DNA of 64,000 bases from an uncultured Gammaproteobacteria bacterium (GTDB lineage Bacteria; Patescibacteriota; Patescibacteriia; Magasanikbacterales; UBA922). This document shows, in pieces, positions 24,040 through 64,000 of the stretch. Made by a program: the position numbers and the translations under genes. The notes below the pieces were generated by a model that did no database searches, was not told the DNA's origin, and saw only the letters and a program-made list of their open reading frames with translations. The stretch lies in the NCBI GenBank assembly GCA_964345045.1, contig CAYFPM010000002.1, forward strand, positions 140,330 to 204,329, given 5' to 3'. Numbering within the stretch: the first letter of the stretch is position 1; the number at the start of each line of letters is the position of its first letter.

Positions 24040-24600
24040 ATGAATAACTTGGAACTGGCCGACTTCGGCATCTCCGGGACCCCCGGCTTTGCCCAGATCG
24101 CCTTCCTCACAACACCCACCCCTACCCAGAACCTTCATGGCATGCTTCGAGCCTTTTTGGCACCAGAGGACGGACTCTGCGACAATCCCCGAGACCTTCA
24201 AGCCAAGATGCTTCGGCTCTCTCGAGACCTCGGCAGACACACCCTGATGGATGAGTGTACTCAAAATTGCTGGGGCAAGCTCTATTACGATAGACGTGTG
24301 AAAGAGCGCAACTTCAGACTATTGATGATTGTCTTCCCGGATCCACTGGTTGCCCTAGGGGTGGCCTTGGACGCCGCCAGCGAGGATCGCGGAGGACTAG
24401 GCAGAATGATAGTGCCCGACGAGGATGTCCGGGCGCAAACCACTGGACTCGATCGTAACAACTACAATTGGTCCAGACCCGAACGCACTGTCCGCCATCG
24501 AAAAGACGGTGCCACCTTCGTTTACCCAGGTGGCAAAAGGCTTCGAATCGACTGGCCCGAACGGCCACCGATGCGTACCCGCTGGCTCAGATCTTTGTAG
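24040..24600 (+). CDS. hypothetical protein (186 aa), GC-rich island gene
   Basis: AGGAGG is 7 nt upstream of the ATG. Translation MNNLELADFGISGTPGF... . No family recognised. Confidence 0.45.
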   Translation: MNNLELADFGISGTPGFAQIAFLTTPTPTQNLHGMLRAFLAPEDGLCDNPRDLQAKMLRLSRDLGRHTLMDECTQNCWGKLYYDRRVKERNFRLLMIVFPDPLVALGVALDAASEDRGGLGRMIVPDEDVRAQTTGLDRNNYNWSRPERTVRHRKDGATFVYPGGKRLRIDWPERPPMRTRWLRSL

Positions 24601-24689
24601 GTAGCCACCGCGCTACCAACCCTAGCGACGAGTTACCCCCTCGTCCTCCCATTCCAATTCTTTTTAGCTTTAGAAATAATTGGACTGTA

Positions 24690-24723
24690 CAAAAACCGAC
24701 TGTGTAAGTCGGTTTTTGTTTTG
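24690..24723 (+). terminator. intrinsic terminator
   Basis: Hairpin aaaccgact-gtgta-agtcggttt followed by TTGTTTTG. Confidence 0.7.
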
Positions 24724-24755
24724 TAAAAATAGTTCTACTAACTTTGGCAAAACAC

Positions 24756-24784
24756 TTGACAAAAACCAAACAATTCTATAACCT
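24756..24784 (+). promoter_or_regulatory. sigma70-like promoter (TTGACA ... TATAAC)
   Basis: TTGACA at 24756-24761. TATAAC at 24777-24782 (15-nt spacer) or TAACCT (17-nt spacer). Confidence 0.45.
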
Positions 24785-24835
24785 AAGTCGTTGTTCTTTG
24801 TAGGAGAAATGCTCAGCATTTATTTCGCCGTTTGA

Positions 24836-24893
24836 CACTGTCTTTATCAAGCTTTGGTAAAGATTGTGCCCAACAGCGGACTTGGCACCCGCA
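24836..24893 (+). promoter_or_regulatory. conserved leader element B (dyad TTATCAAGCTTTGGTAA plus gtgcc/ggcac hairpin)
   Basis: Paralogous to leader A. The dyad is at 24844-24860. A hairpin GTGCC-N13-GGCAC follows. Confidence 0.45.
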
Positions 24894-24909
24894 TCGACCC
24901 GAGGTAATC

Positions 24910-25242
24910 GTGAAAACTTGCATCGTCTGTAATACCCAAACCGTGAAAACCAGTGGCAGTGGATGTGCAGATCCAAGGCTGGAAATCTACAACGGAGGAA
25001 CCGAAGTGTCTCGGTGCATCTGCCCCAAGTGCTGCCAGGCTCGCGAGCCCATCGTGCTCACGGTCTCAAGCTCTGGAGAAGTCGCCCAGCAGCGCATCGG
25101 CAGTGAGACCAACACCGTAAACCGCCTGCCGCTCGCTCAGGTTCTCGCCGCTCTCCAACAAGCAGAGCACATCCACCTCACCGGCAATGAGGTCGCCCAG
25201 ATCACCCGTCACTTCAACGCCCCTCTAGCAGCTGCCAGCTAG
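24910..25242 (+). CDS. small Zn-ribbon protein B (110 aa), paralog of A
   Basis: GTG start after GAGGT. Motifs CIVC...CICPKCC. A shared C-terminal pattern (LT..E.A.I...F) with protein A. Confidence 0.45.
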   Translation: MKTCIVCNTQTVKTSGSGCADPRLEIYNGGTEVSRCICPKCCQAREPIVLTVSSSGEVAQQRIGSETNTVNRLPLAQVLAALQQAEHIHLTGNEVAQITRHFNAPLAAAS

Positions 25243-26273: not shown

Positions 26274-26714
26274 ATGAACGTGAACGGAGATACCGCCCGC
26301 CGGTTTGTGTGGGCAATCAACCATTCTTGCATGATTCACATGCATTTTTTCGGAGGGGAAGAATATCTTTCGCTGACGAAGTCGCCAGGAGGTATGACTT
26401 ACACAGCCAAACTCGACGACGGCAAGCCCCTCCTGACCATCGAAGGTCACTGGGATGACACCAAAAATGGAGAACACGACTTGAGTGGAGTGTACAAAGC
26501 CAACCTCACTAGCGAAAGGAGCGGCACCCGATTTGTAACATTGTGGGGGTGTACTAACTACACTTTCGTGAATAGTTACCCAGCAAGACTGGAAGGACAC
26601 CCCTTAAAGCGAGGGAAAACTATGACCGCATGGGATTACCTGGCTAGATTTGGCTACCCCCTCGACGTATGCCCCAAAAAAGCCCGTCGAGACAATTCAA
26701 AAACAGCTTTGTAG
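26274..26714 (+). CDS. hypothetical protein (146 aa), GC-rich gene with a leaderless start
   Basis: TTGACT ... TATAGG lies immediately upstream of the ATG. GC-rich codon usage. A terminator follows. Confidence 0.45.
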   Translation: MNVNGDTARRFVWAINHSCMIHMHFFGGEEYLSLTKSPGGMTYTAKLDDGKPLLTIEGHWDDTKNGEHDLSGVYKANLTSERSGTRFVTLWGCTNYTFVNSYPARLEGHPLKRGKTMTAWDYLARFGYPLDVCPKKARRDNSKTAL

Positions 26715-28542: not shown

Positions 28543-30270
28543 ATGTTGTCGCAGGACTTACTACTAGATCTACTAAAATCCAAATACAATCTAAAAGCTC
28601 CCGAGATAAAAAACTACCAAACCAAGGCTCAAAAAATAAATAAAAGTTTGGAAGATTACCTTGTAGCAGAAGGAGTAATAGACGAAGTAGCCCTATATAC
28701 AGAAGCTGCCAAACTAATGGAAGTCCCTTTTACTATCTTAAAAGGCAAAGAAATAAAAAAAGAGGTTCTAAACATGGTACCGCCAAGTTTGGCTCAAACT
28801 CACAAAATAGTCGCTTTTGAAGCTAGCAAAACCGAAATTAGCTTGGCCATGCTCGACCCGCTAGACATACAAACCATAGAATTTATCCAAAGAAAAACTG
28901 GTTTAACCCCTGTAGCCTACTTGACTACACCAAGTGACATAAAAGATTCTCTGCGTCGCTACCATGCTGACTTAAACGAAGATATGATGGTAGTCCAACT
29001 AAGTAGCGAATCTGCCAAAGACGAAGGAGATCTAAAAAAAGTAGCCGAAGAATTACCTATAATTAATATAGTAAATAGTATACTAGAACATGCTGTTTTT
29101 GAAGGTGCCAGTGATATCCATATAGAACCACAAGAAAAAGAAGTATCTGTACGTTATCGAGTAGATGGAGTGTTAAAACAAGTCATGACTCTACCCAAAA
29201 AAGTACAAGCCGGTATTGTGGCTCGTATCAAAATTTTGTCTAAATTAAAAATAGACGAACATATGGTACCCCAAGACGGTAGGTTCAAAATACAAATCCA
29301 AGAAGACAAATTATCTTTTCGTGTTTCTATTATCCCAGTTTACGATGGCGAAAAAATAGTAATGCGTCTTTTGCGAGAAGATCAAAAACCCCTATCTCTA
29401 GACCAACTAGGATTTTTGCCAGGACCAAAAAAGCTGGTAGAATCTGCTATTCGTAGACCACATGGCATGGTGCTGGTTACCGGACCAACCGGATCTGGTA
29501 AGACCACTACCCTATACTCCATTTTGTTTATGTTAAACAAACCTGGAGTAAATATTTCTACCATCGAAGATCCTATCGAATACCATGTAAAAGGCATCAA
29601 CCAAAGCCAAATTAATCCTCGTGCCAAATTTACCTTTGCTTCTGGCCTGCGCGCCTTTTTGCGTCAAGATCCAGACATTATCATGGTTGGAGAAATCCGC
29701 GACGAAGAGACTGCAGAAGTTTCTATTCACGCCGCTATGACCGGTCACTTGGTACTCTCTACCCTCCATACCAACGATGCCCCTACCACCTTGCCTCGTC
29801 TTATGGATATGGGAGTTCCTCCATTTTTAGTTGCTTTTACCACCAATGTAATTGTAGCGCAAAGATTGGTAAGAAAAATCTGCAAAGACTGTAAAAAAGA
29901 ATTTACCTTGGATTCAAAAACCATAGAACAATTAGAAAAAATCCTTGACCAAAAATCTTTGCCTACCCTTTTCAAAAATCAAAATATAAAATTAAACCCC
30001 AAAGAAAAAAACTTGCAAAGCATGACATTTTATAGAGGTGAGGGTTGTAGAAAATGCAATCAATCTGGCTACAAAGGCCGAATTGGTATTTACGAAGTTC
30101 TCGATATAGACAAAGATCTGATCAACAAAATAAACCAAAGAGCCACTGCCGAAGAAATCCGCAAACACGCTATTAGCAAAAACATGATTACTATTTTGCA
30201 AGACGGCATTATAAAAGCCAAACAAGGAATCACCTCTATAGAAGAAGTCCTTCGTGTAACCAGAGATTAG
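28543..30270 (+). CDS. pilB: type IV pilus assembly ATPase (GspE/PilB family)
   Basis: N-terminal GSPII_E_N-like domains. Walker A LVTGPTGSGKTTTLYS. Asp and His boxes. C-terminal tetracysteine CRKC. Confidence 0.85.
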   Translation: MLSQDLLLDLLKSKYNLKAPEIKNYQTKAQKINKSLEDYLVAEGVIDEVALYTEAAKLMEVPFTILKGKEIKKEVLNMVPPSLAQTHKIVAFEASKTEISLAMLDPLDIQTIEFIQRKTGLTPVAYLTTPSDIKDSLRRYHADLNEDMMVVQLSSESAKDEGDLKKVAEELPIINIVNSILEHAVFEGASDIHIEPQEKEVSVRYRVDGVLKQVMTLPKKVQAGIVARIKILSKLKIDEHMVPQDGRFKIQIQEDKLSFRVSIIPVYDGEKIVMRLLREDQKPLSLDQLGFLPGPKKLVESAIRRPHGMVLVTGPTGSGKTTTLYSILFMLNKPGVNISTIEDPIEYHVKGINQSQINPRAKFTFASGLRAFLRQDPDIIMVGEIRDEETAEVSIHAAMTGHLVLSTLHTNDAPTTLPRLMDMGVPPFLVAFTTNVIVAQRLVRKICKDCKKEFTLDSKTIEQLEKILDQKSLPTLFKNQNIKLNPKEKNLQSMTFYRGEGCRKCNQSGYKGRIGIYEVLDIDKDLINKINQRATAEEIRKHAISKNMITILQDGIIKAKQGITSIEEVLRVTRD

Positions 30271-37347: not shown

Positions 37348-40300
37348 CTACCAACCAACAGATGCCAAGGCATCGTCAAGTCCAAAAAATGAAGTTAACA
37401 AATACATTATTTTGGATTGAGGTGCTTCTAATTTTGTACTTTGAATCTTTACACCATCAAAAGGAATTGGTTCGAATGAATCTCTTGGTGGAGGAGGCTG
37501 TGTTCCAAAATTTTGATCTTGTGGAGCTGGCATAGGTTGCCCATCAAACTGAGGAGGCGCAAAATTATTATTGTCTTCTATAGGAGGAGGAAAACCTTCG
37601 TCATAGTTACCGGGCGGCCCAACTTGTCCCGGTTCAAAATACCCCCCATCCGGTTCACCCGTACGCATACCACCGTCTTGCGGTGGACGTATAGGTTCGG
37701 TAGGGTATGGCATTTGTCCATCTGGACCGCCGTCTATAAACTTAAACTGTTCATCTCTATAATCTGGTTCAAAGTAAGGTTTTTCTCCTTCAAAAGGTTG
37801 AAAGTGGTCACCAGATTCACCTGGAATAAAAGGCTTATCAAACTCAGGAAAATCTTCTCTTGGAGCAAAGTCTGGCTTGTAATCAAAATCTGGTTTTTGA
37901 TCTAACTCTGGACGATACCTATGATCGATTGGTTCACCAGGACGAAAATCTTCTTTGAACTCTTCACCAAAAGGTTCTTTGTCAAAGTATCTGTCGTCTG
38001 GGCGGAAATCAGGTCTATCAAATTCCGGAATTTGTGGTTTGTCGAACTGTTCGATAACTTGTCTTTCTTGTAATAATTCTTGATCTTTTTTCTCGGCTTC
38101 TTCTTTTATTCTAAGTTTTTCTTCTTCTGTTTCCGCGCCATGTAATTTTTGTTCTAATAAAAATTGTTCTCTTCTACGTTTGGCTTCGATATCTTTGATA
38201 TTTTTTTCAATTTCTTCTGGAGTTAGTTGTGGTCTCTTTTCTCTTTCCACACGGTCAAAAGGTTGACCATCTGGCCCAAATTGCTCTTCACGGAATTCGC
38301 CTGGAAAACCTTGCCCCCTAGGACCTTCTGGTCCAAACTCCGGCATCCCTTCTGGGACAAAGAAATCCCTTCTAAATAACTCTTCCTGCATTCTTTGTTT
38401 TTCTACAATTAAGTTTTCAAAGAATCTTGACTCTTCTTCACGACATTTTTCGTCACAAAATGGATTAAACTTAATTCTTTCTTCGAAACTTCTCTTTTCC
38501 AAATTTAGTGAACGTTCGTTTAACAATCTTTGTTTTTCATCTTTTTCTTGAGCAATTCTTTCTACTTCGGCAAAGTCCCCTCTGGCTTTGGCCTCGTTCA
38601 TAAGTCTATCGCTCTCAATTCTTAGACTTTCTCTTTCTTCATCAAGAGCTTTCCATTCTCCTTCTAGAGCCGGGTCAGGACCTTGTTGCAAAGCTCTTTC
38701 GTTTATAAAACGAGTTTTGTCTTGAAAGATTTGACCAAAATTTGTTTCGCGGCGTTCAAATTCTTTGGCCAAATCCGGCGGACCTTGTTGAAATTTTCTT
38801 TGAAAATTTTCAAATTGACTAGGGTCTTCAATGTTTTTCAAATGTTCGGTAATACCTTCGGTATGTTTGTCGATTACTTTGTCAAAGATAAATTCAAATC
38901 CTGGTGGAGGGCCAAACTCTGGACCAAATCCCGGATCAAACTCTCCCGGAGGACCAAATCCTTCTGGTCCAAATTCTGGAGGAAATGGAGGGAAACCTTC
39001 TTCGCCAAATGGAGGAGGACCAAACTCTGAGCCAAATCCTTCTGGTGGGGCAAAAAATTGTTCTGGATTATCTTTGAAATCTTCTTGTAATTGTTTAAAA
39101 ATTTCAATGTCTTGTGGGTTGCTAGAAATTACTTTTTCAAAAAATTTGTCACCTTCGGTACGAGCGCGTTCTGCAAATTTACTTTTGGCTTCGCGTTCCA
39201 TTTGTTCGATAAATTTGGCTTTTTCCGGATCAGCGCGAACTTCTGCTTCTAGCTCTTGCAAAAGTCTAAAGGTGGTAGGATCTGGATTCTCAGCCATTTT
39301 TTGAGATAATTTTCTAAAACGTTCTGCTTGATCTTGGGATTCGGTGTCTACAAAAACATTTTTAAATTTCTCAATAGAGGCTTCGTGTTCTTTTTCAAAT
39401 TCTTCTTTTATTTCTTCATCATCAAACTCTACTCTTTGTCTGATTTCTTCCAAAACACGAAGTTTTACCACTTTTTCGGTTCCTTCGGCTTCTTGAAAAC
39501 GCTTAAACATTCTTTCACGCATTCTTTTGCTTACAGCTTCGTCACTAAAATTTTCATTAAATTCTTCTACCTTTTGTTTAAATTTTTGTGCAGAAATATC
39601 TTTGGCAGCCTCTATTCTTTCGGCAATTTCTGCTGGCAAATTTTCTTGATAATTTTTCATGCGATCAAATATTTCGATGTGCAAAGCATCGTCTCCACGC
39701 ATGTCTCTGGTATAATTTTCAAAACGAGTAGAAATTTCTTCTTTTGGCAACTCGTTTACTTTGTTTACAAAACGTTCAATAGCTTTGTCTTCTACTTTTT
39801 CCAAAGCTTCGCGAGCTTCCTCTGGCACATGTTCTTGGACACGTTTGATAACTTCCAAATTTCTTAATTCTTTAAAATGACTTCCTGCTTGACGATCCAA
39901 AACTCTGTCAAAATGAGTAGCTAATCTTTCTGGGTTAGTTTCGATTTGGCTTACAGCTTCACCTACACTGCTGGCAGAAACTTCTTTGGTTTGTTGAATT
40001 TTTTCTACTACTTTGGCAGCAATTTGTTCCGAAGCGGTTTCGGTTACTTTTTTTTCTATTTGTTCCAACACTTTTTGTTGTTTGATTTGCTTGTCCAAAA
40101 TTTCTTCAACCAACAAAGCTCCTTTTTCTTCTTCTATATCTTTTGAGCTTTCTTTTACTTTTTCCAAAGCGTTTTCAAAATTAGTAATAGCTCTCAAGGC
40201 TCTGTTGGCAGCAGCATCATTATTTGGTTCTTCTTCAATTACTTCTTTGGCACGCAACAAATCTTCGCTGGCAAATTTTACTTCTAGCTCCACCTTTTTG

Positions 40301-40659
40301 GCTTTGTCAAAAGTAATTACCTTTTGGATAGGACGAAAAAAACGCTTTAATCCATAAAAGCGTGTATTTGCCTCCAAATCTTGATCTGTTACAGTTTCGT
40401 CCAAGTTTACTTCTTGTGATGATAGAGACGGCTGATCACTCACTCCTTCGTTTGTGCCCTCGATTGACTGATCAATAGTCTCTACTACTGCTGTTTCTGC
40501 AGTTGGAGGCGGTGCCTCTTGGGCAGAAGCCGGTCTAGCGAACAAAAAAACAGCTACCAAAATTGTGATACCTGCCAATAGATAATAGTATACCCAAGAA
40601 AAGTGATGGGCTTCGTTTGTATTCAAAGAATTTGCAAACGCATTTTGTTTGTTTTTCAT
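37348..40659 (-). CDS. giant (about 1100 aa) secreted or anchored repetitive protein: coiled-coil E/K-rich N-terminal part and Pro/Gly/Phe-rich FGPEGF-type repeats
   Basis: Signal-anchor sequence. Repeats PEFGPEG, FGPPP and DFRPD. Extreme acidic and proline-rich composition. Confidence 0.55.
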   Translation of the reverse strand: MKNKQNAFANSLNTNEAHHFSWVYYYLLAGITILVAVFLFARPASAQEAPPPTAETAVVETIDQSIEGTNEGVSDQPSLSSQEVNLDETVTDQDLEANTRFYGLKRFFRPIQKVITFDKAKKVELEVKFASEDLLRAKEVIEEEPNNDAAANRALRAITNFENALEKVKESSKDIEEEKGALLVEEILDKQIKQQKVLEQIEKKVTETASEQIAAKVVEKIQQTKEVSASSVGEAVSQIETNPERLATHFDRVLDRQAGSHFKELRNLEVIKRVQEHVPEEAREALEKVEDKAIERFVNKVNELPKEEISTRFENYTRDMRGDDALHIEIFDRMKNYQENLPAEIAERIEAAKDISAQKFKQKVEEFNENFSDEAVSKRMRERMFKRFQEAEGTEKVVKLRVLEEIRQRVEFDDEEIKEEFEKEHEASIEKFKNVFVDTESQDQAERFRKLSQKMAENPDPTTFRLLQELEAEVRADPEKAKFIEQMEREAKSKFAERARTEGDKFFEKVISSNPQDIEIFKQLQEDFKDNPEQFFAPPEGFGSEFGPPPFGEEGFPPFPPEFGPEGFGPPGEFDPGFGPEFGPPPGFEFIFDKVIDKHTEGITEHLKNIEDPSQFENFQRKFQQGPPDLAKEFERRETNFGQIFQDKTRFINERALQQGPDPALEGEWKALDEERESLRIESDRLMNEAKARGDFAEVERIAQEKDEKQRLLNERSLNLEKRSFEERIKFNPFCDEKCREEESRFFENLIVEKQRMQEELFRRDFFVPEGMPEFGPEGPRGQGFPGEFREEQFGPDGQPFDRVEREKRPQLTPEEIEKNIKDIEAKRRREQFLLEQKLHGAETEEEKLRIKEEAEKKDQELLQERQVIEQFDKPQIPEFDRPDFRPDDRYFDKEPFGEEFKEDFRPGEPIDHRYRPELDQKPDFDYKPDFAPREDFPEFDKPFIPGESGDHFQPFEGEKPYFEPDYRDEQFKFIDGGPDGQMPYPTEPIRPPQDGGMRTGEPDGGYFEPGQVGPPGNYDEGFPPPIEDNNNFAPPQFDGQPMPAPQDQNFGTQPPPPRDSFEPIPFDGVKIQSTKLEAPQSKIMYLLTSFFGLDDALASVGW

Positions 40660-43070: not shown

Positions 43071-46047
43071 TTATTCCTCCCCCCTCACCTCATAGCTTAG
43101 CTCCAGCCCCTTACTAGTCATAAGGAAACCCTTCACGACAATCCTCTGCGCATGAATATCATTGTGACATTCTTTGCAAATAGGCAGTAAATTAAATTTG
43201 TGATTTTTGTGAATGTGACCAATGTTGCCATCTTCGTCTGCCATCTCCTGCGGCGAAATATGGTGAGTGTCGTCCACATTTTTTTGGCAGATAGCACAAG
43301 TCGACAAGTATAGCTCTTTGCTATACTTGCTTTTATTTTTCTGAGTCAATAATTCTAGATCGGTGTAGTCGGCAGCTAGAGATTTCCGTACATCTTTGGC
43401 ATAGCGTAAGAATTGCTCGTCCATGTGTAGCGACTGGGCGAACTCTAGGCCATAGATAGTACTACCATTCCCAGGCTGGAGGGTGCGATCAAAGATTAAC
43501 TTGTCTTCGTCTTTGTCATAATGCACACTCATGTGAACACTAGCCACTTCGTGCAATTCTTGAAGTTCGCGAATACTACAAATCTGATGCAAGTGCGTGG
43601 TAAAAAGAAACATAGCTTTTTGCTCTACCAATCTTTTTATGGTGGCAGTAACAATAGCAATGGCAGACAAAGTTTCGGTGCCATGGCTAATCTCGTCGCC
43701 AAGAACAAGACTTTTTGGAGTAGAACGATTAAAAATATTTTTTAGCTCCATCATTTCTACAGCAAAAGAAGATAATCCTTTGGCAAAATTATCTCGCGAA
43801 ACTATGCGGGTAAAGAGTTCGTGGCAAAGACTAAAACGCATGGCTGTTGCAGGAACATACATACCTGCCTGAGCCAGGATTACTGCAATGCCCAAACTTT
43901 TCATTAGAGAAGATTTTCCACTAGAGTTAATTCCATAAAGCAGCATCCCTCGCACATCACCTACAGTTTCTGTAGCGATTACTGATTCTTTATTCTGTTT
44001 GGAAAACAAATTCTCCGAACCCAGTACAATATCGTTTGGAATATAAATACCACCTTCTTCGCGAGCTTCTACTAGCGGATGACGTAGGTCTTTTATAGAA
44101 ATATATTGTTCTTCTTCTGTTGTTTCTACTATTTCTGGGCGAACCAGCCGATAAGCAGTAGCATTTTTGCCGGTCGATACAGCCACGTCTATTCTAGCCA
44201 ATACTTTGCTACATTCGGATACAAAGTCCGAAAAATTCTTGTCCATGTGTTCCAGAGCTTCGGCAAAGAGAGACTTTACCAACTGCACAATTCGGGCTTC
44301 AACATCTGTTAGCTCTTTCGAAAATTCTTGTATTACTTCGGCCGAAATTTTGACATTGTTAGTTTGCTGTTTGTATTGAAATTCGGACAAAGCATAGACA
44401 GTGCCATCGATAGGCAAAAAAGTTTCTTTCAAAGATTGCTCGATCAAACTAAAACGAGCTTTGGTCATAATCAAATGATGTCGTTCTTTGTCTAGCTTGC
44501 GGAGAGTTACATATTCTGGTTCGTGTTTGCCTGTAGCGTTTTCTAATAACTCTACAAATTTCATGCGAATAAGCGAAAGTTTTTCTTCCAAAATATTTTT
44601 TTCTTTCATTAATTCTGTCAATTCTTTTTGATATTCCGGAGCAAATATATTGGTGCTAATAGTTTGGGTAGTAACTTTGGCAGTTTCATCCAAATCAAAA
44701 GTTTCTTCGATATATCTCTTGGTGTCGGCCAAACTATTTTGTTGCGAAATAAATTCTGGCAAAAGTTCGGCGGCACTTTCTTTTACAAGTTCTAAGATAG
44801 TTTGTGCTCCTAGCATTGAATCGTACAAAAAATTAATCTCAAACGGATGCAAACGGCCAAGCCGGATACGACGAACAATTCTTTCTAGATCATAAATTTT
44901 TCGCAAAGCTTGTTCAATATTACTTTGCTTGGGCAAGAGAGCCTCTACCAGATCATAACGAGTTTCTATTTCTTTTTTATCGGTAATTGGATTGGTAAGA
45001 CGGTCTCTAAAAAGACGTTTACCAATAGCCGTAGAAGTATGATCTAGATAAGATAGCAAAGTCCGCTCACGTGGATCCGGGCTAACAATGCTAAGCTGCT
45101 CGAGTGGATTATTACCCAAATACAAATATTTTTCCGGTTCAATAATTGTAGGCTTTTTGAGATTTTCAATCACGCGCGCGTCATGCTCTACGATAAATTC
45201 GATAAGGTGTGCCAAAGCTTCGGAAGTAAGGGGTTGGCGTTCTAGATCGAGAAATTCTATGGGTGAAAGAAATGATTTTACTACATAAGCTCGTTTAAAA
45301 AGTTCATTTTGATAATTTACAGACAACCTTTTTTCTCTTTCGTGAATATTTTGAAAATCTGCCAGTTCCAAATATTTCAAAATTTCTTCTTTGTTTATTT
45401 CTTTGCTACCGGGAGTAAGGATTAACTCGGCCAAATTGTGCGAGCGGACTAGTCCAAAAAGCTGATCAAGAGCAGCAGATTTATCTTCTTTTGTACTATG
45501 CCCCTCAAAAAGATAAGTCTTGCCAGTAGTCACGTCTAGTGCAGCATAACCCACCGAGTAAAGTCCTTGGTGTTCTTCTACCATTATAGAAGCAATAAAA
45601 TTGTCGGCATGGTCTAGGCAATACTCCATGTTTACACCCGGAGAAATAATTTGGTCTAGATAGCGAGTAATATTTGGAGGAGTTCCTTTTTGACGAATCA
45701 CTACAATAGTATATTTTTTTTCAGAAATAAGTCTGGCAATGTAACGATCAAAAGTAGCCGTAGGAAAACCGGCCATGAGTGGATTGGTAATCGAATTTTC
45801 TTTGATACTTTTGTTACGGCGAGTTAACTGCAAATTTAGCAGATCGGCAATTTCTTTTACTTTACCAAGGGTCACCTCTTCGTTATCTACTCCATAAACT
45901 TCAAAAAAAGAGCCTAACTCTATTAGTACAATTGTGTTTTCTCCATAGCGTTCGGAGTAAATCTTGTGTAAATCAAAGTATCCCTCAAGGATATTTTTAT
46001 CCGGGTTACCTAGGTAGTAATTGATATCGATAGGTTCTCTTTGCATA
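43071..46047 (-). CDS. mutS: MutS-family DNA mismatch recognition ATPase with a C-terminal HNH endonuclease domain (MutS7-like architecture)
   Basis: MutS domains (Walker A GINSSGKSSLMKSLG, DE..HGT). The C-terminus CAICQKNVDDTHHISPQEMADEDGNIGHIHKNHKFNLLPICKECHNDIH carries an HNH motif. Start chosen at MQREPIDINYY. Confidence 0.7.
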
Positions 46048-46156
46048 TTTTTGTGCCATATATGGTAGCATATTGAGAGCTTTGAACATATAGCTGGCGA
46101 CATTAACTTAATCTCTGCTACAATAAGCATCTAAATAAATTAATCTAAAAATTAAT

Positions 46157-47364: not shown

Positions 47365-49515
47365 ATGATTAAAGAAGCCCAAAATTCTCTCAAGCATTCA
47401 TTTGGTTTCAACAGCTTTTTGCCCACCCAAGAAGAAGTGGTAAAAGCTGTGCTTGCCAAAAAAGATTGCATGGTGCTTATGCCAACCGGGGGTGGTAAAT
47501 CTTTGTGTTACCAATTGCCGGCAACTGTTTTACCCGGACTTACCATTGTAGTTTCTCCATTGATTGCTCTTATGAAAGATCAAGTAGAAAACTTGGTAGA
47601 AAATGGAATCAAAGCAGCTTATATAAATAGCTCGCTTAATCTAGAAGAGGCCAACGAAGTTATGACGGCTGCCAGAGAAGGCGATATAAAATTACTTTAT
47701 ATCTCTCCAGAAAAAATTGTTTCTAGTTTTTTTCAAAACTTTTTAAACAGCATAGACATTAGTTTGTTTGCTGTAGACGAAGCCCATTGTATCTCGGCTT
47801 GGGGACATGATTTTCGTCCGGAGTATACCAAGCTAAGATCTATCAAAGAAAAATTTCCAAACACACCAATTATTGCTCTCACTGCTACAGCCGACAAGTT
47901 AACTCGCAAAGATATTTTGAGTCAGTTAAGACTAAAAGACCCAGAAATTTTTATTTCTTCTTTCGACAGACCAAATTTGCAACTCACTGTTTTGCCAGGA
48001 AAAAACAGGGCTGAAAAAATAATAGATTTTATAAGAAAAAGAAAAAACGAATCTGGGATTGTGTATTGCCTAAGTAGAAAACAAACCGAAAAAATGGCCG
48101 ACGCTTTGGCAAAAGCCGGAATCAAAGCCGAATACTACCATGCTGGTTTAGACAGTAACGAAAGATCGAGAGTTCAAGAGAACTTTGTCCATGGCCGCAC
48201 TCCGGTGATTACAGCCACCATTGCTTTTGGTATGGGAATTGATAAATCAAATGTAAGATATGTTATTCACCACAACTTGCCAAAAAATCTAGAAGGTTAT
48301 TACCAAGAGATTGGCCGGGCTGGTCGTGATGGACTCCCAAGTGAAACTGTCTTATTTTATTCGCTCGCCGATTTGGTTCTGTTAAAAAAATTTGCTCGTG
48401 AATCTGGCCAGCCAGATTTGCAAACCTCCAAATTGGAAAGAATGCAACAATATGCCAATGCTCTTATTTGTAGACGTAGAATTTTACTTTCGTATTTTGG
48501 TGAGCATGTAGAAAACAATTGTGGCAACTGCGACGTGTGCCACAACCCTCCGGAATTTTTTGATGGCAGCAAAACTGCTCAAAAAGTTTTGTCGGCGATT
48601 TATAGATTAAATGAAAAAGCTGGGGTAAACACAGTTATAGATGTGTTGCGTGGTTCTGCTCGCCAAGAAATCATTGCGAATAATTTTCACAAAATCAAAA
48701 CCTATGGCATTGGCAAAGACACTCCGGTAGAACACTGGCAACACTATGTACTGCAAATGATTAATCTAGGTCTACTCGACATTGCTTACGACGATCACAA
48801 TAGTTTGAAAATCACCGAGGCTGGTAGAGACGTGATTTTGGAAGATAAAAAAGTCCAGCTAGTAACAATTAAATCTATTGAAGAGAGAATGGTTGAAGAA
48901 ATTAGTGCTAGCAAAACCAAATCAAAACGCAAAGAAGCCGAAGAAGAACTCTTTGATAAACTTCGTGAGTTGCGCAAGTCTATTGCTCAAGCGGCTGGGG
49001 TACCGCCGTATATTGTATTTAACGATGCTACGCTAGACGAAATGACCGCCCAAATGCCGGCGAGTGAAAAAACTATGAAAAAAATTACTGGTGTGGGTGA
49101 CAAAAAATTTGCTAGCTACGGCAAACAATTTATAAATGTTATTGCCAAGTTTATAAAAGAAAAAGATAAGTCTGGCCAAAAGGTGCAAGGCAGTACCCAA
49201 GATGTAACTTTTGCCTACTACAAGCAGGGCCTACCAGTAGCACAAATTGCCAGAGAAAGAAGCTTGGCCGAACAAACTATTTACAGTCACTTGGCCGAGC
49301 TATATGAAAGAGGTCATGAGATTAATATATCTGAATTTTTGCCAAAGTCAGATTTGAAAAAAATTGTAGCGTCTATAAAGGAAAAAGGCATCCCCAAACA
49401 ACTAAAAACTCTCCACGAGAGATTTGGCGGAGAGTTTGATTATCACAAATTGAAATTGGCTATTGCCCACTACAAAGTAAATTTTGGTGAGCAAGGGGTT
49501 ATACGGTATGATTGA
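47365..49515 (+). CDS. recQ: ATP-dependent DNA helicase RecQ
   Basis: Helicase motifs [19 protein letters not shown] and TATA. Zn-binding CGNCDVC. RQC and HRDC regions. Confidence 0.85.
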
Positions 49516-51485: not shown

Positions 51486-51640
51486 CAAAAAATATCAAGA
51501 GTGAGGATAGCGACTTGGCGCCACAACCCTCTACCAACCGAGCTTAACTACGGTGGTTCCAACCCCAATGGGAAAGATAGGCCTTTTAAACAAAAGGAAA
51601 ATAAGGAGTTTCTTATCTTATCCGGGTAAGAAATTTTTGT
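51486..51640 (+). ncRNA. candidate SAM-I (S-box) riboswitch with an intrinsic terminator expression platform
   Basis: P1 UAUC/GAUA. J1/2 AAGAG. Segments resembling the S-box consensus (AUCAAGAG, ACCAACC, GGUGnUUCC, GAAAGAUA). A terminator hairpin tttctta-N11-taagaaa plus a U-run lies at 51607-51640, about 75 nt before the ATG. Confidence 0.45.
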
Positions 51641-51716: not shown

Positions 51717-52649
51717 ATGAAAGACGGAAAAGACACTTATTTCTTCAGCGATTGCTTTCAACACGGAAGCTCCCAATTTGATCCGAATGCCGCCTCCCGA
51801 ACGATGGCTCGCTTTCGCAAGATTAGTAGACAAATCAGGCCAGAAGTATCCCCACCTTTCCTCGACAGACAAGGAGCTTGGCGAGGGACTGACCTAGGTT
51901 TTCTGATGGCCGAGTTGGCTCATCAACACACAGGGCTGGTCATTGGTGGAAATGCTGCCAAGCGAATCCCTGGGAAAAAAAACGGAACTTCTTTTTCTTT
52001 GGCAACGGTAGGTGGCAACCTAATCCTTTCTACTGTGGGCAAAAACACCTACCCAGTAATGGCTCGTCTTCTTGGGCTAGACTCAATCGAAGTTGCCCTC
52101 CTCGATATCGGAAACGCTGCCCAGAAGATGAATGTCCAAAACAAAGAAAGGATGACAACCACTCAATACCGTTCGCTCTGGTTTCAAACAGCGGCTTTGG
52201 CTCAGCTGGCTCACCTCGAAACACTCCCCACTCACCCAAATTCGATCTTCGGCGGGGAAGTAAAAACAATCAAGCCTGACAGCGGAATGCGAATTGTCTA
52301 TATCGATAGCTTCGGAAACTTGAAGCTCTCTGGTAGAAGAAAAGACTTGCCCAAGGGAGAAAGAATCAAGGTCTCTTTCCCAGAAAAAGCACATCGAAAC
52401 CTCTCGCCACTTGGAGCGAACAACACAGCACATATCACAGGTGGAAGGGAAAACGAATTTCAAGTTTCAGTCGGATCAAGTATCCCTACCGAAGCAGGCG
52501 GTCTACTAGAACTCCAAATCCTCGGTGGAACTAGGATAGGAGTCGATACGGCTGCAGACAAAGTTCTAGGGCACTTCCTGGGCGTCCCGGACGTTCGCTG
52601 CCATCACGACCTCATAGGTATCAAAGTGAGGCTCAGCAAAGCCTCCTAA
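51717..52649 (+). CDS. DUF62-like protein (SAM hydroxide adenosyltransferase / SalL-FlA family), GC-rich gene
   Basis: N-terminus FFSDCFQHGSS. Central YRSLWFQTAALAQLA. C-terminal domain IVYIDSFGNLKLS resembles the D.FGN motif of DUF62 enzymes. Foreign-like codon usage. Confidence 0.4.
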   Translation: MKDGKDTYFFSDCFQHGSSQFDPNAASRTMARFRKISRQIRPEVSPPFLDRQGAWRGTDLGFLMAELAHQHTGLVIGGNAAKRIPGKKNGTSFSLATVGGNLILSTVGKNTYPVMARLLGLDSIEVALLDIGNAAQKMNVQNKERMTTTQYRSLWFQTAALAQLAHLETLPTHPNSIFGGEVKTIKPDSGMRIVYIDSFGNLKLSGRRKDLPKGERIKVSFPEKAHRNLSPLGANNTAHITGGRENEFQVSVGSSIPTEAGGLLELQILGGTRIGVDTAADKVLGHFLGVPDVRCHHDLIGIKVRLSKAS

Positions 52650-53164: not shown

Positions 53165-53773
53165 TTATTTTAAATATTCTTCTATAGATTTATCAAACAC
53201 TTCTTGTAAGTCGCTATATGCCAATAGATTTTCCTCTCTTTTCATTTCTGCATGAAACTTACCCAGTTTCTGGTTGTAGCAAAGTGCTGACAAAGGTAAC
53301 CCTGAAATATAATGGGGTTGATTGTCTACAAGTTTGAAAGCAAATTCTCTATTGTAGGCAAATTCTATTATTTTTCCTTCTGCAGTACAGATAGCAAAGG
53401 CAAAATGCCATTTGCCTCCTGTTAAGTTTTTTTCAACAATTTGTTTGTGCCAATAATCATATATTTCTTTATCTGTGGCTCTGGTCTTACCATCAAAAAT
53501 TCTTCTAGCATGCACCCCTGGTTGCTCAGCTTCTGAGATTTCATCTACAAACAGAGCAATGTCTACAGCCAAAACATCTGTTTTAAATTCACGAGAGTAT
53601 ACACTAGCCTTATATTTGGCGTTTTTTTCGGCAGTTTCAAAAGGCTCCTCAACTTCAAAATCAACAGAAAAATCATTCAAAGACTTAATCTCCAAATTCT
53701 CATATTTGACAAGGTAATGAGAAAAAAATTCCAATTTTCCAGAATTAGTTGTAGCCAAAGTTAATTCTTTCAT
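53165..53773 (-). CDS. Ham1/RdgB-family non-canonical purine NTP pyrophosphatase-like protein
   Basis: N-terminus LATTNSGKLEFF resembles the ITPase motif LATGNxGKxxEF. About 200 aa. Confidence 0.5.
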   Translation of the reverse strand: MKELTLATTNSGKLEFFSHYLVKYENLEIKSLNDFSVDFEVEEPFETAEKNAKYKASVYSREFKTDVLAVDIALFVDEISEAEQPGVHARRIFDGKTRATDKEIYDYWHKQIVEKNLTGGKWHFAFAICTAEGKIIEFAYNREFAFKLVDNQPHYISGLPLSALCYNQKLGKFHAEMKREENLLAYSDLQEVFDKSIEEYLK

Positions 53774-54170: not shown

Positions 54171-54322
54171 AGGTAAAAATAAGTGTCGTACAATTATTCT
54201 AATGATCTATTCTTACAAACCAGAGTAGGCTATTCAAAAAAATAATTTCTGTTATACTACTTTTACTATATAAACGAACAAACCTAGTCTAGCTAGGTTT
54301 GTGGAAAAAATCAACCTTATAT

Positions 54323-55447
54323 ATGGAAAATATTCTACTTACAATTGTTTCACTCGGTCTTGCTGCCGCTGTAGGCGTAATCTTTTTTATGTTCAAGAAG
54401 TTATCCGATTTGCAGCAAGGCAAAAATTCTGGAGACGAAGAAAAAAACATGTTTGTCATGCTGCAAAACCAAATGCAAGATCTAGCCAAAACTTTTGACA
54501 ACAAAATGGGGGAGACGCACAAAACCATGCACGCCACTCAGCAAGATATTAACAAAACTTTGCAAGAACAATTTGGTCACAATACCCGATTGATCCAAGG
54601 TGTTACGAGCCAAAGCACCAAAATGATTGCAGACATCACCGAGAAACTTACTAGTCTTGATAAAACTAATCAACAAGTGATTGGTTTTTCTGAACAGCTA
54701 AATAACTTGGAAAAAGTTTTGAAAAGCCAAAAACAAAGAGGGAATCTGGGCGAAGCTGGTTTGCAACTAGTGCTAGAAAACATTTTGCCTCCAACTGCTT
54801 TTTCTATTCAGCATAATTTTAAAGATGGTGACACGGTGGACGCAGCTATCTTTACCAAAGATGGGATTATCCCAGTTGATGCCAAATTCTCTTTGGAAAA
54901 TTATCAAAAACTAATTGACGAAACCGATGAAAACCGCAAAGCCACGCTAGAGCGAGAATTTAAAAATGATTTGAAAAAACGCATTGACGAAACTAGTAAA
55001 TACATAAAACCAAAAGAGGGGACACTCGATTTTGCCTTTATGTTTATTCCGAGCGAAGCTATTTATTATGATCTCTTGGTAAACGAAGTTGGCGCTGTCA
55101 AAGTTAACACCAGAGATTTGATTGATTATGCTTTTAATGAAAAGAAAGTGATTATAGTTTCACCAACTACTTTTGCTGCTTACCTCCAAACAGTTTTGCA
55201 AGGTTTGCGCGCACTCAAAATTGAAGAAGGAGCCAAGAGTATACGAAAAAATGTGGAGATGCTGGGTAAACATGTCAAAGCTTACGAAGAATATATGAAA
55301 AAGCTTGGCAGCAGCATGACCACTACTGTAAATCATTACAACACAGCTTACAAAGAACTAGGCAAGATTGATAAAGACGTGATGAAAATAACTGATGGTG
55401 AAAAAATGATTGAGGTGGAGCAGATTGAGCGGCCAAAAGGGGAGTAG
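54323..55447 (+). CDS. rmuC: DNA recombination protein RmuC
   Basis: N-terminal TM helix plus coiled-coil. C-terminal RmuC nuclease-like domain ([34 protein letters not shown]). Confidence 0.75.
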
Positions 55448-61665: not shown

Positions 61666-61714
61666 AATTAATTCCTTCCATCTCTCTTTAGGAGAGAGAA
61701 CTTTCTAAGAAAAT

Positions 61715-62092
61715 TTATAATAAAACTCTCGCCCTTTTCAAAACATTCACCACACTCTTTTCGATATCTTTATACTCTGCTTCCAAAATCTGTGGCTTGG
61801 CCATAACAGAAACCATAAAACCATTTTTTATCTTGCCGTCTTTTATAAGCAATCTTACCACTTCTCTCATTTGTCTTTTGATCCGATTTCTCTTTACAGC
61901 ACTTTTATGAATTTTTTTGCTAACCACAAATCCAATCAACGTTTTGTCTTTGGAATAATTCCGACGAGGATGTTTGTCTGGATCAACTTGCCATACTTTG
62001 GCTGTTACCACTTTTTCACCCACAAAAAAACCTTCTTTGAAGAGGATATCAAAATCTTTCATGTGTTTTAGGCGGTATTCTTTGGGAAGCAT
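61715..62092 (-). CDS. rnpA: ribonuclease P protein component
   Basis: Motif FVVSKKIHKSAVKRNRIKRQMRE. Immediately downstream of rpmH. Confidence 0.75.
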   Translation of the reverse strand: MLPKEYRLKHMKDFDILFKEGFFVGEKVVTAKVWQVDPDKHPRRNYSKDKTLIGFVVSKKIHKSAVKRNRIKRQMREVVRLLIKDGKIKNGFMVSVMAKPQILEAEYKDIEKSVVNVLKRARVLL

Positions 62093-62194
62093 ACTCAAAA
62101 ATAGACAAGATACAGGAATCAATATACATCAGTATAAAATAAATTTGTATCTTATTCCATATATTTTGTATTTTAAAAACCCCTTAAGGGGTTT

Positions 62195-62371
62195 TTAACG
62201 TGTTTTACGCATTCTTTTGCCACTGCGCTCATCGCTTACAGTTAGCTTTTTGCGGCCTTTTTGGCGACGGCGTTTTAGCACATCGCGACCATCTTTGGAT
62301 TTCATACGGCTACGAAAACCATGAGTCTTGGCGCGTTTGCGTTTTTTTGGTTGATAAGTTCTTTTTGGCAT
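62195..62371 (-). CDS. rpmH: 50S ribosomal protein L34 (58 aa, C-terminally extended)
   Basis: [45 protein letters not shown]... . It is not in the ORF track because it is under 60 aa. A hairpin aaaacccctt/aaggggtttt lies between rpmH and rnpA. Confidence 0.8.
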
Positions 62372-62429
62372 ATTTTTTTATGAAGTCTTGGATTAGGCGT
62401 TCCACTTCCCAACCACTTGCAACGTCACA

Positions 62430-62458
62430 AATATACATTATTTAGCAAAAAAAGTCAA
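62430..62458 (-). promoter_or_regulatory. sigma70-like promoter TTGACT-17-TATATT for rpmH
   Basis: On the minus strand, ccTTGACTttttttgctaaataatgTATATT. Confidence 0.45.
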
Positions 62459-62549
62459 GGCTAAACAGAAAAACCACCTCTCGGTGGATATTTCTGCTCT
62501 ATTTTTGCAAAAAATGGAATTGGCATGTTTGGTAGGTACATGCCGAACC

Positions 62550-63242
62550 TTATGAGACCTGGCACTCGTCGTAGAGGCCATGCCACCAGCTGCCCATGGC
62601 AGATAGGACGGCTTGGGCTCCGCAGACAAAGTCGGCTTGGCACACTCCGTGGCTTTGCAAAAGAGCTTGCTTCAACCCTTCCTGATGCCCGGGCTCCCAG
62701 ACGTTGATGTGCTTATCCAAGAATTTTCGCAGGCCATTAGCCAGTGGTTTGTTATGGAAATCCTCAGAAAGCCTCTCCAAGAGGACCTTTACGACCAACA
62801 GCTCGGGACGAGCCGTAGCCTCCAGAGCATAGGCTGCCCCCAAGGAAAGTGACGAATTAGAACCGTTAATCGCATCTTCGACACTACCAAGAAAGCTACT
62901 TGTAGCCTTCGAGGAAATGGTATGGCGAACGGACAACCCCAAGCCTACCTGGAGTGTCCCTTCCAGCATCTCGTAGTGGGTAATACCCACACTGTCCGAG
63001 CCGAGTTCTTCGCCGATATTGCGGCTGAGCTCTAGCTCTACAGTCTTCAAACCACACCGACGCGCTGCATCCCTAGATCTCGTCAGAAACCGGACAATCT
63101 CCTTGGGAAAAAGAGTGTATTGAGCAACAACATACTCCAGGATCGCACGGTTGGTGTGGCGCGTGGTGAAGGGGTTCCCATCGACCTTTAGCTCAGCAGT
63201 GCTTGCCACGAGTGCGTCGATGGTCTGGATTGAATTTTTCAT
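62550..63242 (-). CDS. hypothetical protein (230 aa), GC-rich, possibly a heme-oxygenase-like or iron-containing redox enzyme fold
   Basis: Higher GC than its neighbours. Helical sequence with a NIGEELG....H.EM segment reminiscent of ExxH metal sites. Weak assignment. Confidence 0.3.
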   Translation of the reverse strand: MKNSIQTIDALVASTAELKVDGNPFTTRHTNRAILEYVVAQYTLFPKEIVRFLTRSRDAARRCGLKTVELELSRNIGEELGSDSVGITHYEMLEGTLQVGLGLSVRHTISSKATSSFLGSVEDAINGSNSSLSLGAAYALEATARPELLVVKVLLERLSEDFHNKPLANGLRKFLDKHINVWEPGHQEGLKQALLQSHGVCQADFVCGAQAVLSAMGSWWHGLYDECQVS

Positions 63243-63380
63243 TAGAAGGATCTCTCTTGTCTACACCAACCAGATGGTTAGCGGCTCAAGCATTCTTTAT
63301 CTTGAACAAGTCATTGTAACTTAATTTTACGTTTTTGTAAATATTAAACTGTATATTTATTGTTATTTATTTAAAATATG

Positions 63381-63409
63381 TTGACATTTAGCTAAAAAAA
63401 TGATATAAT
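63381..63409 (+). promoter_or_regulatory. consensus sigma70 promoter TTGACA-17-TATAAT
   Basis: TTGACA at 63381-63386 and TATAAT at 63404-63409. A second TTGACA at 63415. Confidence 0.6.
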
Positions 63410-63432
63410 TAATATTGACAAAAACATACAAA

Positions 63433-64000
63433 TATGGATATTCACAAACAATTATCACAAATTGGTCTACACAAATCAGAAATTGAGGTTTACCTATACT
63501 TACTCGAAAATGGCATTTCTACCCCACCACAAATAGCCAAAGGCACCAAAATTGCTCGTACCAATTGCTACAATCTACTCCAAAGCCTAAAAGACAAAGG
63601 CCTAATCTTGGAACAAGAGAAAGGCAAAAGAAAAGCTTATATAGCTTCTGACCCAGAGGCAATTCTTCGCTCTATAGAGCAAAAAAAAGAAGCAGTAGAG
63701 AGAATTTTGCCAGATCTTCGCGCTCTCTATACCACCCAAAAAAACAAACCAACTATCAAATTTTACGAAGGTTTTGAGCAAATTAAAGAGATATACTGGC
63801 AAGCCACCCAAACAGAAAAGCTTTTGGCAATTGGGTCTACCAAACTACTAAGCGAAAAAGACCCTATTTTCTTTAAAAAATTTCAAGAAGAATTAAAAAG
63901 AAAAGAAGTTTTCTTGCAAGACATTATTACCAGCCAATCAGAAACTGTTGGTACAGAAGAAACCAAGCAAATTCTAAAAGGTTTTTATGATTTTCAAACT
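63433..64000 (+). CDS. TrmB-family HTH transcriptional regulator (3' end beyond the window)
   Basis: MDIHKQLSQIGLHKSEIEVYLYLLENGISTPPQIAKGTKIARTNCYNLLQSLKDKGLI matches the TrmB winged-helix N-terminus. No stop codon within the window. Confidence 0.6.

What the first reader, a model, noticed from the sequence alone, without database searches (positions are those of the whole stretch)
43071..46047. MutS fused to a C-terminal HNH endonuclease (MutS7-like architecture)
The about 990-aa MutS homolog ends with CAICQ...HHISPQ...HIHKNHKFNLLPICKECHNDIH, which has the Cys/His spacing of an HNH nuclease. MutS-HNH fusions (the MutS7 lineage) are known from octocoral mitochondria, some epsilonproteobacteria and giant viruses. 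They provide self-contained mismatch nicking without MutL/MutH. Finding one here is notable, and no mutL is in this window.
Basis: partly seen in the sequence, partly recalled or inferred. Interest (0 to 1): 0.55.

Follow-up and report, generated by a model that had tools for sequence, protein, structure and literature searches.

The report
MutS7 (MutS–HNH) in a Patescibacterium
The gene is a real, intact MutS mismatch-sensor fused to an HNH nuclease, a member of the already described MutS7 family, here in a tiny Magasanikbacteria-like (CPR) bacterium; the new point is the host lineage, while the proposed MutL-free repair remains untested.

Summary
Observation confirmed and interpretation supported. 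A minus-strand ORF (43071..46046, 991 aa; an upstream ATG at 46130 would give 1019 aa) encodes a complete MutS: Pfam domains I, III and V, and a confident AlphaFold model that superposes on all of E. coli MutS (TM 0.82-0.85), including the connector and clamp. A ~25-residue linker joins it to a C-terminal zinc-finger HNH domain. The window protein's own Pfam HNH hits are below threshold. At family level the call is solid: CxxC/HH/N/Cxx(C/H)H/H is invariant across homologs, 34 of 35 C-termini hit His-Me/HNH models, and the fold is beta-beta-alpha. The protein sits in a Patescibacteria clade (98-99% bootstrap). That clade is sister to the epsilonproteobacterial MutS7 proteins (81-84%) and related to named Mimiviridae MutS7, far from E. 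coli MutS1. It is not MutS2, because it has domain I and no Smr domain. No MutL or MutH homolog is in the window, ~10 kb beyond its left edge, or 1.17 Mb of related loci. The rest of the genome could not be checked. The host is Magasanikbacteria-like. The family is large, with more than 580 matching stretches in species-representative genomes. It is a new member of a known kind, and nicking is inferred, not shown.

The parts
43071..46046 (-). mutS7 coding sequence, 991 aa plus stop codon (stop at 43071-43073). An alternative upstream ATG at 46130 would give 1019 aa.
   Evidence: ORF list. Homolog lengths and N-terminal alignment favour 46046. Upstream sequence read.
45633..45941 (-). MutS domain I (mismatch-binding), residues ~36-138. 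The G-S-F47-F-E49-V-Y motif lies at 45900-45908.
   Evidence: Pfam MutS_I E=8.7e-10. F47 and E49 are invariant. They align with E. coli F36-x-E38 and are conserved at >=90% across the family.
45159..45602 (-). Connector domain (MutS domain II-like), residues ~149-296
   Evidence: Pfam MutS_II is only E=0.0064, below the cutoff. The region is modelled with high confidence and is covered by the full-length superposition on E. coli MutS.
44175..45104 (-). Core/lever domain III, residues ~315-624, with the clamp (domain IV-like beta region, residues ~513-568, at 44343-44510) inserted between two long helices
   Evidence: Pfam MutS_III E=3.1e-30. Secondary structure of the AF2 model. TM 0.82-0.85 to E. 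coli and Taq MutS over ~900 columns.
43377..43943 (-). ATPase domain V, residues ~702-890: Walker A GINSSGKS (705-712, at 43911-43934), Walker B GDE (783-785), THLH (817-820), and the C-terminal helix-turn-helix
   Evidence: Pfam MutS_V E=2.4e-43. Motifs aligned to E. coli and conserved at >=90% in the family.
43302..43373 (-). Flexible linker, residues ~892-915. It takes the place of E. coli MutS residues 801-853 (tetramerisation domain and beta-clamp motif).
   Evidence: pLDDT below 50 at residues 895-901. No counterpart of the E. coli QMSLL region in the alignment.
43149..43301 (-). HNH (beta-beta-alpha-metal) nuclease core with a zinc site: C917-x2-C920, H928-H929, N952, C957-x2-C960-H961, H965
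43074..43148 (-). Conserved C-terminal beta-hairpin (G973, T977 and G980 invariant; 'GF.MTS.GLEL'). Its role is unknown.
   Evidence: Invariant columns. Strands 969-977 and 980-987 in the model. The same signature appears in giant-virus members.

Best explanation
The gene encodes a MutS7-family protein: a complete MutS1-like mismatch sensor with an HNH nuclease tethered to its C-terminus by a flexible linker. It lies in the chromosome of a Magasanikbacteria-like Patescibacterium and looks vertically inherited in that lineage. SHOWN by computation: (a) all MutS parts needed for mismatch recognition and ATP-driven switching are present and under strong conservation (Phe-x-Glu wedge, clamp, Walker A/B, helix-turn-helix at the end of domain V); (b) the C-terminal ~75 residues are a zinc-stabilised beta-beta-alpha HNH with every catalytic and metal-binding position invariant across bacteria and giant viruses; (c) the E. 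coli C-terminal tetramerisation and beta-clamp-binding region is replaced by the linker plus HNH; (d) the gene stands alone, with no conserved partner nearby. INFERRED: a MutS7 dimer binds a mismatch through domain I and switches state on ATP binding. Its own HNH domain then nicks one strand near the mismatch, doing the job that MutL (or MutL+MutH) does elsewhere. General helicase, exonuclease, polymerase and ligase functions would finish the repair. How the nascent strand is chosen is unknown. My confidence that it is a MutS7 member is about 0.95. My confidence that the HNH is an active nuclease is about 0.75. My confidence that it acts as MutL-independent mismatch repair in this organism is about 0.45.
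Confidence: 0.8

Rival explanations
1. It works as an ordinary MutS in a MutL-dependent pathway. A mutL gene lies elsewhere in the genome, and the HNH domain is an accessory or back-up nuclease.
For: The MutS body is complete and MutS1-like. mutS and mutL are unlinked in many bacteria. Some CPR lineages carry MutS and MutL. Only about 75 kb of the genome was examined.
Against: It scores below the NCBIfam MutS1 equivalog cutoffs (383 against 480 bits, and 296 against 642). No MutL was found in the window or in 1.17 Mb around 80 homologs. The E. coli C-terminal region is replaced. The catalytic HNH residues are invariant from bacteria to giant viruses, which argues for an essential rather than accessory nuclease. 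Helicobacter-type epsilonproteobacteria lack MutL.
Confidence: 0.15
2. It is not a replication-error repair enzyme. Instead it is a heteroduplex or recombination-intermediate nuclease (anti-recombination or a barrier to foreign DNA), functionally analogous to MutS2-Smr, cutting mismatched heteroduplexes rather than starting repair.
For: The layout is analogous to MutS2, a MutS-family ATPase with a C-terminal nuclease. HNH nucleases are common in defence and conflict systems (one search hits include Cap5, McrA, TagI and HNH-Cascade). No strand-discrimination feature was found.
Against: Unlike MutS2, it keeps domain I with the invariant Phe-x-Glu mismatch wedge. It lies on the MutS1 side by score. 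It is a stand-alone chromosomal gene with no defence-island neighbours. The Mimiviridae review reports it in all fully sequenced genomes of that family, and it is also in octocoral mitochondria, where lower substitution rates are reported.
Confidence: 0.15
3. The C-terminal module is a catalytically inert zinc finger, used only for DNA binding or dimerisation.
For: The window protein's Pfam HNH scores are below threshold, and there is no significant PDB sequence hit.
Against: The catalytic positions (H929, N952, H961, H965), and not only the zinc ligands, are invariant across 35-150 sequences down to ~33% identity. Many family members do pass the HNH models.
Confidence: 0.05

Closest known systems
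MutS7 of Campylobacterota (epsilonproteobacteria: Sulfurimonas, Hydrogenimonas, Nitratiruptor, Arcobacter)
   Same: Full-length collinear homologs at 45-50% identity with the same domain order I-(II)-III/(IV)-V-linker-HNH-hairpin. They form the sister clade in the tree. They are stand-alone genes too.
   Different: The fourth zinc ligand is His (CxxHH) in Campylobacterota and Cys (CxxCH) in the window protein, other Patescibacteria and most giant-virus members. The host phylum differs.
Mimiviridae MutS7 (for example Mimivirus, Fadolivirus, Terrestrivirus) and octocoral mitochondrial mtMutS
   Same: Same family and architecture, with about 33-37% identity over the full length including the HNH and the C-terminal hairpin. 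The HHNH residues match the description for octocorals.
   Different: The viral members form a separate clade with 100% bootstrap. They often carry inteins or K/N-rich tails. No octocoral sequence was available to align here.
Canonical MutS1 (E. coli / Thermus aquaticus MutS)
   Same: The whole MutS fold (TM 0.82-0.85), the Phe-x-Glu wedge, the clamp, the ATPase motifs and the helix-turn-helix at the end of domain V.
   Different: Only 20-23% identity. Scores fall below the equivalog cutoffs. There is no C-terminal tetramerisation or beta-clamp motif, and an HNH nuclease is added. No MutL or MutH was found nearby.
MutS2 (MutS-Smr)
   Same: A MutS-family ATPase fused to a C-terminal endonuclease.
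   Different: MutS2 lacks domains I and II and carries an Smr nuclease, not an HNH. The window protein has domain I and scores 116 bits against the 400-bit MutS2 cutoff.
Zinc-ribbon and [CxxC]2 phage HNH nicking endonucleases; HNH domains of Cas9, IscB and HNH-Cascade
   Same: Beta-beta-alpha-metal core with His-Asn-His and a CxxC...CxxC zinc site (abstract of PMC3592412 as listed). They are single-active-site enzymes that typically cut one strand.

Membership tests
MutS7 (MutS-HNH lineage) | MutS domain I with the mismatch-binding Phe-x-Glu motif | tested here: met
   Pfam MutS_I E=8.7e-10. F47 and E49 are invariant and align with E. coli F36/E38.
MutS7 (MutS-HNH lineage) | MutS domain III (core/levers) | tested here: met
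   Pfam MutS_III E=3.1e-30.
MutS7 (MutS-HNH lineage) | MutS domain V ATPase with intact Walker A/B | tested here: met
   Pfam MutS_V E=2.4e-43. GINSSGKS, GDE and THLH are conserved.
MutS7 (MutS-HNH lineage) | C-terminal HNH endonuclease domain with the H-H-N-H residues | tested here: met
   H928, H929, N952 and H961/H965 plus the Cys ligands are invariant. Of 35 family C-termini, 34 hit DUF968, 23 HNH_2 and 18 HNH. The model is beta-beta-alpha. Caveat: the window protein's own Pfam hits are just below the cutoffs.
MutS7 (MutS-HNH lineage) | Phylogenetic clustering with epsilonproteobacterial and Mimiviridae MutS7, apart from MutS1 | tested here: met
   NJ trees with 100 bootstraps, with and without the HNH columns. 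Viral names come and epsilonproteobacterial names. No octocoral, MutS2 or MutS8 sequences were included.
MutS7 (MutS-HNH lineage) | No detectable domains II and IV, as the literature describes from HMM searches | tested here: inconclusive
   At the HMM level MutS_II is sub-threshold and MutS_IV is absent, in line with the literature. The AF2 model, however, contains both a connector and a clamp that superpose on E. coli MutS. The 'absence' is therefore probably an HMM sensitivity limit.
MutS7 (MutS-HNH lineage) | MutL/MutH-independent, self-contained nicking (the proposed function) | not testable with these tools
   No MutL or MutH in the window, ~10 kb beyond its left edge, or 80 loci.
MutS1 (canonical MutS) | Passes the NCBIfam MutS equivalog models | tested here: not met
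   NF003810 scores 383.4 against a 480-bit cutoff. TIGR01070 scores 295.9 against 641.7.
MutS1 (canonical MutS) | C-terminal tetramerisation domain and beta-clamp motif, with no nuclease domain | tested here: not met
   E. coli residues 801-853 have no counterpart; a linker plus HNH takes their place.
MutS2 | Lacks domain I, carries a C-terminal Smr domain, and passes TIGR01069 | tested here: not met
   Domain I is present and there is no Smr hit. TIGR01069 scores 116.1 against a 400-bit cutoff.
HNH / His-Me finger nucleases | Beta-beta-alpha-metal fold with the general-base His, Asn and metal-binding His | tested here: met

The most novel reading that the evidence does not exclude
In Magasanikbacteria-like Patescibacteria, MutS7 is the only mismatch-repair initiator. 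It would be a single-polypeptide, MutL-free sensor-plus-nickase kept in ultra-small genomes. The Patescibacteria clade shares the CxxCH zinc site with the giant-virus proteins, unlike the CxxHH epsilonproteobacterial clade. That would make it an overlooked bacterial reservoir bearing on where the Mimiviridae and octocoral MutS7 came from, and on the use of MutS7 as a metagenomic 'bait' for Mimiviridae.
Probability: 0.35. Interest if true: 0.55.

Novelty: new member of a known kind. Interest (0 to 1): 0.3.

Why it matters
MutS7 has been discussed for fifteen years as a possible one-protein mismatch-repair system, but only for octocoral mitochondria, Mimiviridae and epsilonproteobacteria. This analysis shows a large, well-supported Patescibacteria clade of the same protein. 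The papers I could search do not mention it, although database records already label these proteins 'DNA mismatch repair protein'. That widens the known host range to bacteria with about 1-Mb genomes, where a MutL-free repair module would make economic sense. It also offers small bacterial orthologs for biochemical tests. Finally it is a caution for studies that treat MutS7 hits in metagenomes as markers of giant viruses. The structural model also indicates that the reported 'missing' domains II and IV are probably present. None of this changes what is known about the family, so the finding is solid but of modest surprise.

Tried and rejected
Translating 43071-46047 failed on frame; the correct range is 43071-46046 on the minus strand.
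- **PDB sequence-profile search.** Searching with the HNH alignment gave only E=0.47-0.69 hits. One of them was a Cap5 HNH, which is suggestive but not significant.
- **Conserved neighbours and partners.** RecQ is adjacent in only 3 of 80 loci. Clustering the flanking ORFs found only lineage-local housekeeping synteny and no helicase, exonuclease or MutL partner.
- **Source names for distant clusters.** The listing of cluster members returned no taxon names. I solved this with a second homolog search seeded with P0239.
- **Ogata et al. 2011.** The paper that named MutS7 is not held, so the definition was taken from Bilewitch & Degnan 2011, Muthye & Lavrov 2021 and Claverie & Abergel 2018.
- **Zinc-site geometry.** Model coordinates are not exposed to scripts, so distances could not be measured.
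- **Genome-wide mutL check.** This was not possible. Contig walking reached ~10 kb past the left edge and ~2.4 kb past the right edge.
- **Rejected readings.** I rejected MutS2/Smr, canonical MutS1, a pseudogene or assembly chimera (the ORF is intact and collinear with hundreds of homologs), and a giant-virus origin of the window (bacterial housekeeping genes and Magasanikbacteria-like YchF).

Full report
**1. Observation**

The window has one long ORF on the minus strand, 43071..46130. From the first ATG it would be 1019 aa. The quoted C-terminal string CAICQ...HHISPQ...HIHKNHKFNLLPICKECHNDIH is present verbatim. Close homologs are mostly ~970-1010 aa and align from about residue 7 of the 991-aa form. 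The 46046 start is therefore the more likely one. Neither ATG has an obvious ribosome-binding site.

**2. The MutS body**

- Pfam finds MutS_I (8.7e-10), MutS_III (3.1e-30) and MutS_V (2.4e-43). MutS_II is sub-threshold and MutS_IV gives no hit.
- NCBIfam places the protein nearer MutS1 (383 and 296 bits) than MutS2 (116 bits), but below every equivalog cutoff.
- E. coli MutS aligns over its residues 7-790 at 23% identity, E=3e-45.
- A full-length AlphaFold model built from 40 homologs is confident (pLDDT 85.7, pTM 0.78). Foldseek matches it to E. coli and Taq MutS at E~1e-46, with TM 0.82-0.85 normalised to the target over ~900 columns. Human MSH2, MSH3 and MSH6 follow.
- The model has a connector domain, and a beta-rich clamp inserted between two long helices. 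The 'missing' domains II and IV reported for MutS7 from HMM searches are therefore probably an HMM sensitivity limit.
- The functional motifs are invariant or at least 90% conserved across the family: G45-S-F47-F-E49-V-Y (the E. coli F36-x-E38 mismatch wedge), Walker A GINSSGKS, Walker B GDE, the S-x-F-x-x-E-M signature and T-H-L-H.
- E. coli's C-terminal tetramerisation and beta-clamp region (residues 801-853) has no counterpart.

**3. The HNH domain**

- After a low-confidence linker (pLDDT below 50 at residues 895-901) comes a ~75-residue module.
- On its own, the window protein only reaches DUF968 at 21.6-26.6 bits (cutoff 27.8) and HNH_2 at E=0.74. A PDB sequence-profile search was not significant.
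- Family-level evidence is much stronger. C917, C920, H928, H929, N952, C957, H961 and H965 are invariant in 40 sequences sharing 47-87% identity with the window protein.
- Of 35 C-termini scanned individually, 34 hit DUF968, 23 hit HNH_2, 18 hit HNH (PF01844) and 6 hit HNHc_6. The best E-values range from 3.6e-9 to 8e-6.
- The domain model (pLDDT 75.5) has strand(HH)-strand(N)-helix(CH...H), which is the beta-beta-alpha-metal topology.
- The pattern CxxC...HH...N...Cxx(C/H)H...H matches the [CxxC]2 zinc site plus His-Asn-His described for phage HNH nicking enzymes (abstract of PMC3592412 as listed).
- From my own knowledge, not tested here: the HH doublet, the Asn, and two His residues four positions apart resemble colicin E9 H102/H103, N118, H127 and H131.
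- Patescibacterial and most viral members use CxxCH, whereas Campylobacterota use CxxHH.
- A conserved beta-hairpin (G973, T977, G980) follows the HNH core in all lineages. Its role is unknown.

**4. Family and phylogeny**

- The exhaustive representative search gives 3702 clusters (at 50% identity) with E<=1e-30. The top 150 are 33-60% identical and nearly all align through the HNH.
- 146 of 149 carry the HH..N..Cxx[C/H]H motif. The exceptions are two truncated fragments and one other protein.
- Species-representative genomes hold more than 581 relatives. The nearest (<=59% identity) are Magasanikbacteria, Uhrbacteria, Kerfeldbacteria and Nomurabacteria MAGs. Then come Sulfurimonas, Hydrogenimonas, Nitratiruptor, Arcobacter and other Campylobacterota at 45-50%. 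These are the 'epsilonproteobacterial MutS7' of the literature.
- A search seeded with a distant representative returned Edafosvirus, Terrestrivirus, Mimivirus LCMiAC01 and Fadolivirus proteins, some carrying inteins. That group is therefore the Mimiviridae MutS7 branch.
- In bootstrapped NJ trees rooted on E. coli MutS, Patescibacteria plus the window protein are monophyletic in 98-99% of replicates. Patescibacteria plus Campylobacterota are monophyletic in 81-84%, and the named viruses in 100%. Results are the same when the HNH columns are removed.
- This meets the literature definition of MutS7: domains I, III and V plus a C-terminal HNH with HHNH residues.

**5. Host and context**

- The window carries bacterial housekeeping genes, including YchF and trigger factor and four tRNAs. 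By eye, ORFs at 26.9-28.3 kb look like ribosomal proteins S6 and S18 and SSB; these were not scanned against a profile library.
- It also has features typical of CPR bacteria: two DUF5667 proteins, T4SS_pilin-domain proteins and a type IV pilus cluster.
- The named relatives of its YchF are all Magasanikbacteria/Patescibacteria at 69-74% identity.
- Because MutS7 groups with the same lineage, vertical inheritance in this clade is more likely than a recent transfer.
- The gene stands alone. It is convergent with an unknown ORF on one side and divergent from an LTXXQ protein, a tRNA-binding protein and RecQ on the other.
- No neighbour is conserved across the 80 loci. RecQ is adjacent in only 3 of them.

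**6. MutL**

- tblastn with E. coli MutL and MutH finds nothing in the window (best E=1.8) or in 1.17 Mb flanking 80 homologs.
- No ORF of 450 aa or more in the window has MutL domains.
- The ~10 kb beyond the left edge, and the ~2.4 kb recovered beyond the right edge, also hold none.
- The rest of the genome could not be examined.
- Literature context: Helicobacter-type epsilonproteobacteria have MutS2 only, with no MutL or MutS1. Among CPR lineages, some have MutS and MutL and others have neither.

**7. Mechanism**

- Shown: there is an intact, conserved mismatch sensor and ATPase, physically tethered to an HNH domain whose catalytic residues are conserved.
- Inferred: after mismatch recognition and the ATP-driven switch, the tethered HNH nicks one strand, in place of MutL or MutH. 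Strand choice is unexplained.
- I found no experimental test of this in the searchable literature, where it is still presented as a hypothesis.
- The rivals are a MutL-dependent role, an anti-recombination or heteroduplex-cleaving role, and an inert zinc finger. I rate them at 0.15, 0.15 and 0.05.

**8. Verdict**

This is a new member, and a little-noticed host clade, of a known family. The papers I could search list only octocorals, nucleocytoviruses and epsilonproteobacteria as hosts. The database records for the Patescibacteria proteins already read 'DNA mismatch repair protein'. Interest is modest at 0.3.

Noticed in passing
window 23400-25200 (and a patch at 26400-26700): A GC-rich island (50-58% GC) inside a ~37% GC genome. 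It holds two paralogous small Cys-rich ORFs on the + strand, 23412-23801 and 24832-25242 (28% identity, E=9e-9, motif CxxC...C.C..CC..EP), plus a 206-aa TTG-start ORF at 23980-24600. There is no Rfam match there. It may be foreign DNA or an unusual small-protein locus.
   Followed up: partly
window 51487-51613 (+), upstream of ORF 51717-52649: A SAM-I/IV riboswitch (45.6 bits, gathering score 41.1) precedes a 310-aa ORF that has no Pfam hit. That ORF could be an unrecognised SAM/methionine-related transporter or enzyme in a CPR genome.
   Followed up: no
window ~61700-64000 and just beyond the right end (L085): By mapping L085 onto the window, rnpA and rpmH lie at about 61.7-62.4 kb, and a TrmB-like gene followed by dnaA lies immediately past the window end. 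The window therefore abuts the likely replication origin. GC skew is negative across almost the whole window.
   Followed up: partly
L003, L011, L012 (genome contigs): Three MAGs titled 'uncultured Gammaproteobacteria bacterium' carry MutS7 proteins 54-57% identical to the window protein. The taxon labels are probably wrong, or these are transfers.
   Followed up: no
P0192, P0288, P0291, P0292, P0299, P0305, P0307 and other giant-virus-branch homologs: Many MutS7 proteins in the viral branch are 1150-1400 aa and carry intein/homing-endonuclease Pfam domains (PF05203, PF05204) or long K/N-rich C-terminal tails. None of the Patescibacteria or Campylobacterota members examined has these.
   Followed up: partly
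HNH zinc site, residue 960 of the window protein (family alignments A1, A2): The fourth zinc ligand is lineage-specific: Cys (CxxCH) in Patescibacteria and most viral members, His (CxxHH) in Campylobacterota. This could serve as a simple clade marker.
   Followed up: partly
window 47365-49515 (RecQ), 53165-53773 (Ham1/ITPase), 54299-55447 (RmuC): Several DNA-maintenance genes lie within 10 kb of mutS7: a RecQ with an extra C-terminal HTH_40 domain, a Ham1-family ITPase and RmuC. The linkage is not conserved, with RecQ adjacent in only 3 of 80 loci, so it is probably coincidental.
   Followed up: yes
window 2149-3531 and 37348-40659 (DUF5667 proteins); 15084-16196 and L086 353-2963 (T4SS_pilin): There are two large DUF5667 proteins and a run of T4SS_pilin-domain genes, plus a type IV pilus ATPase at 28543-30270. 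This is typical CPR cell-surface gene content and helped identify the host.
   Followed up: no
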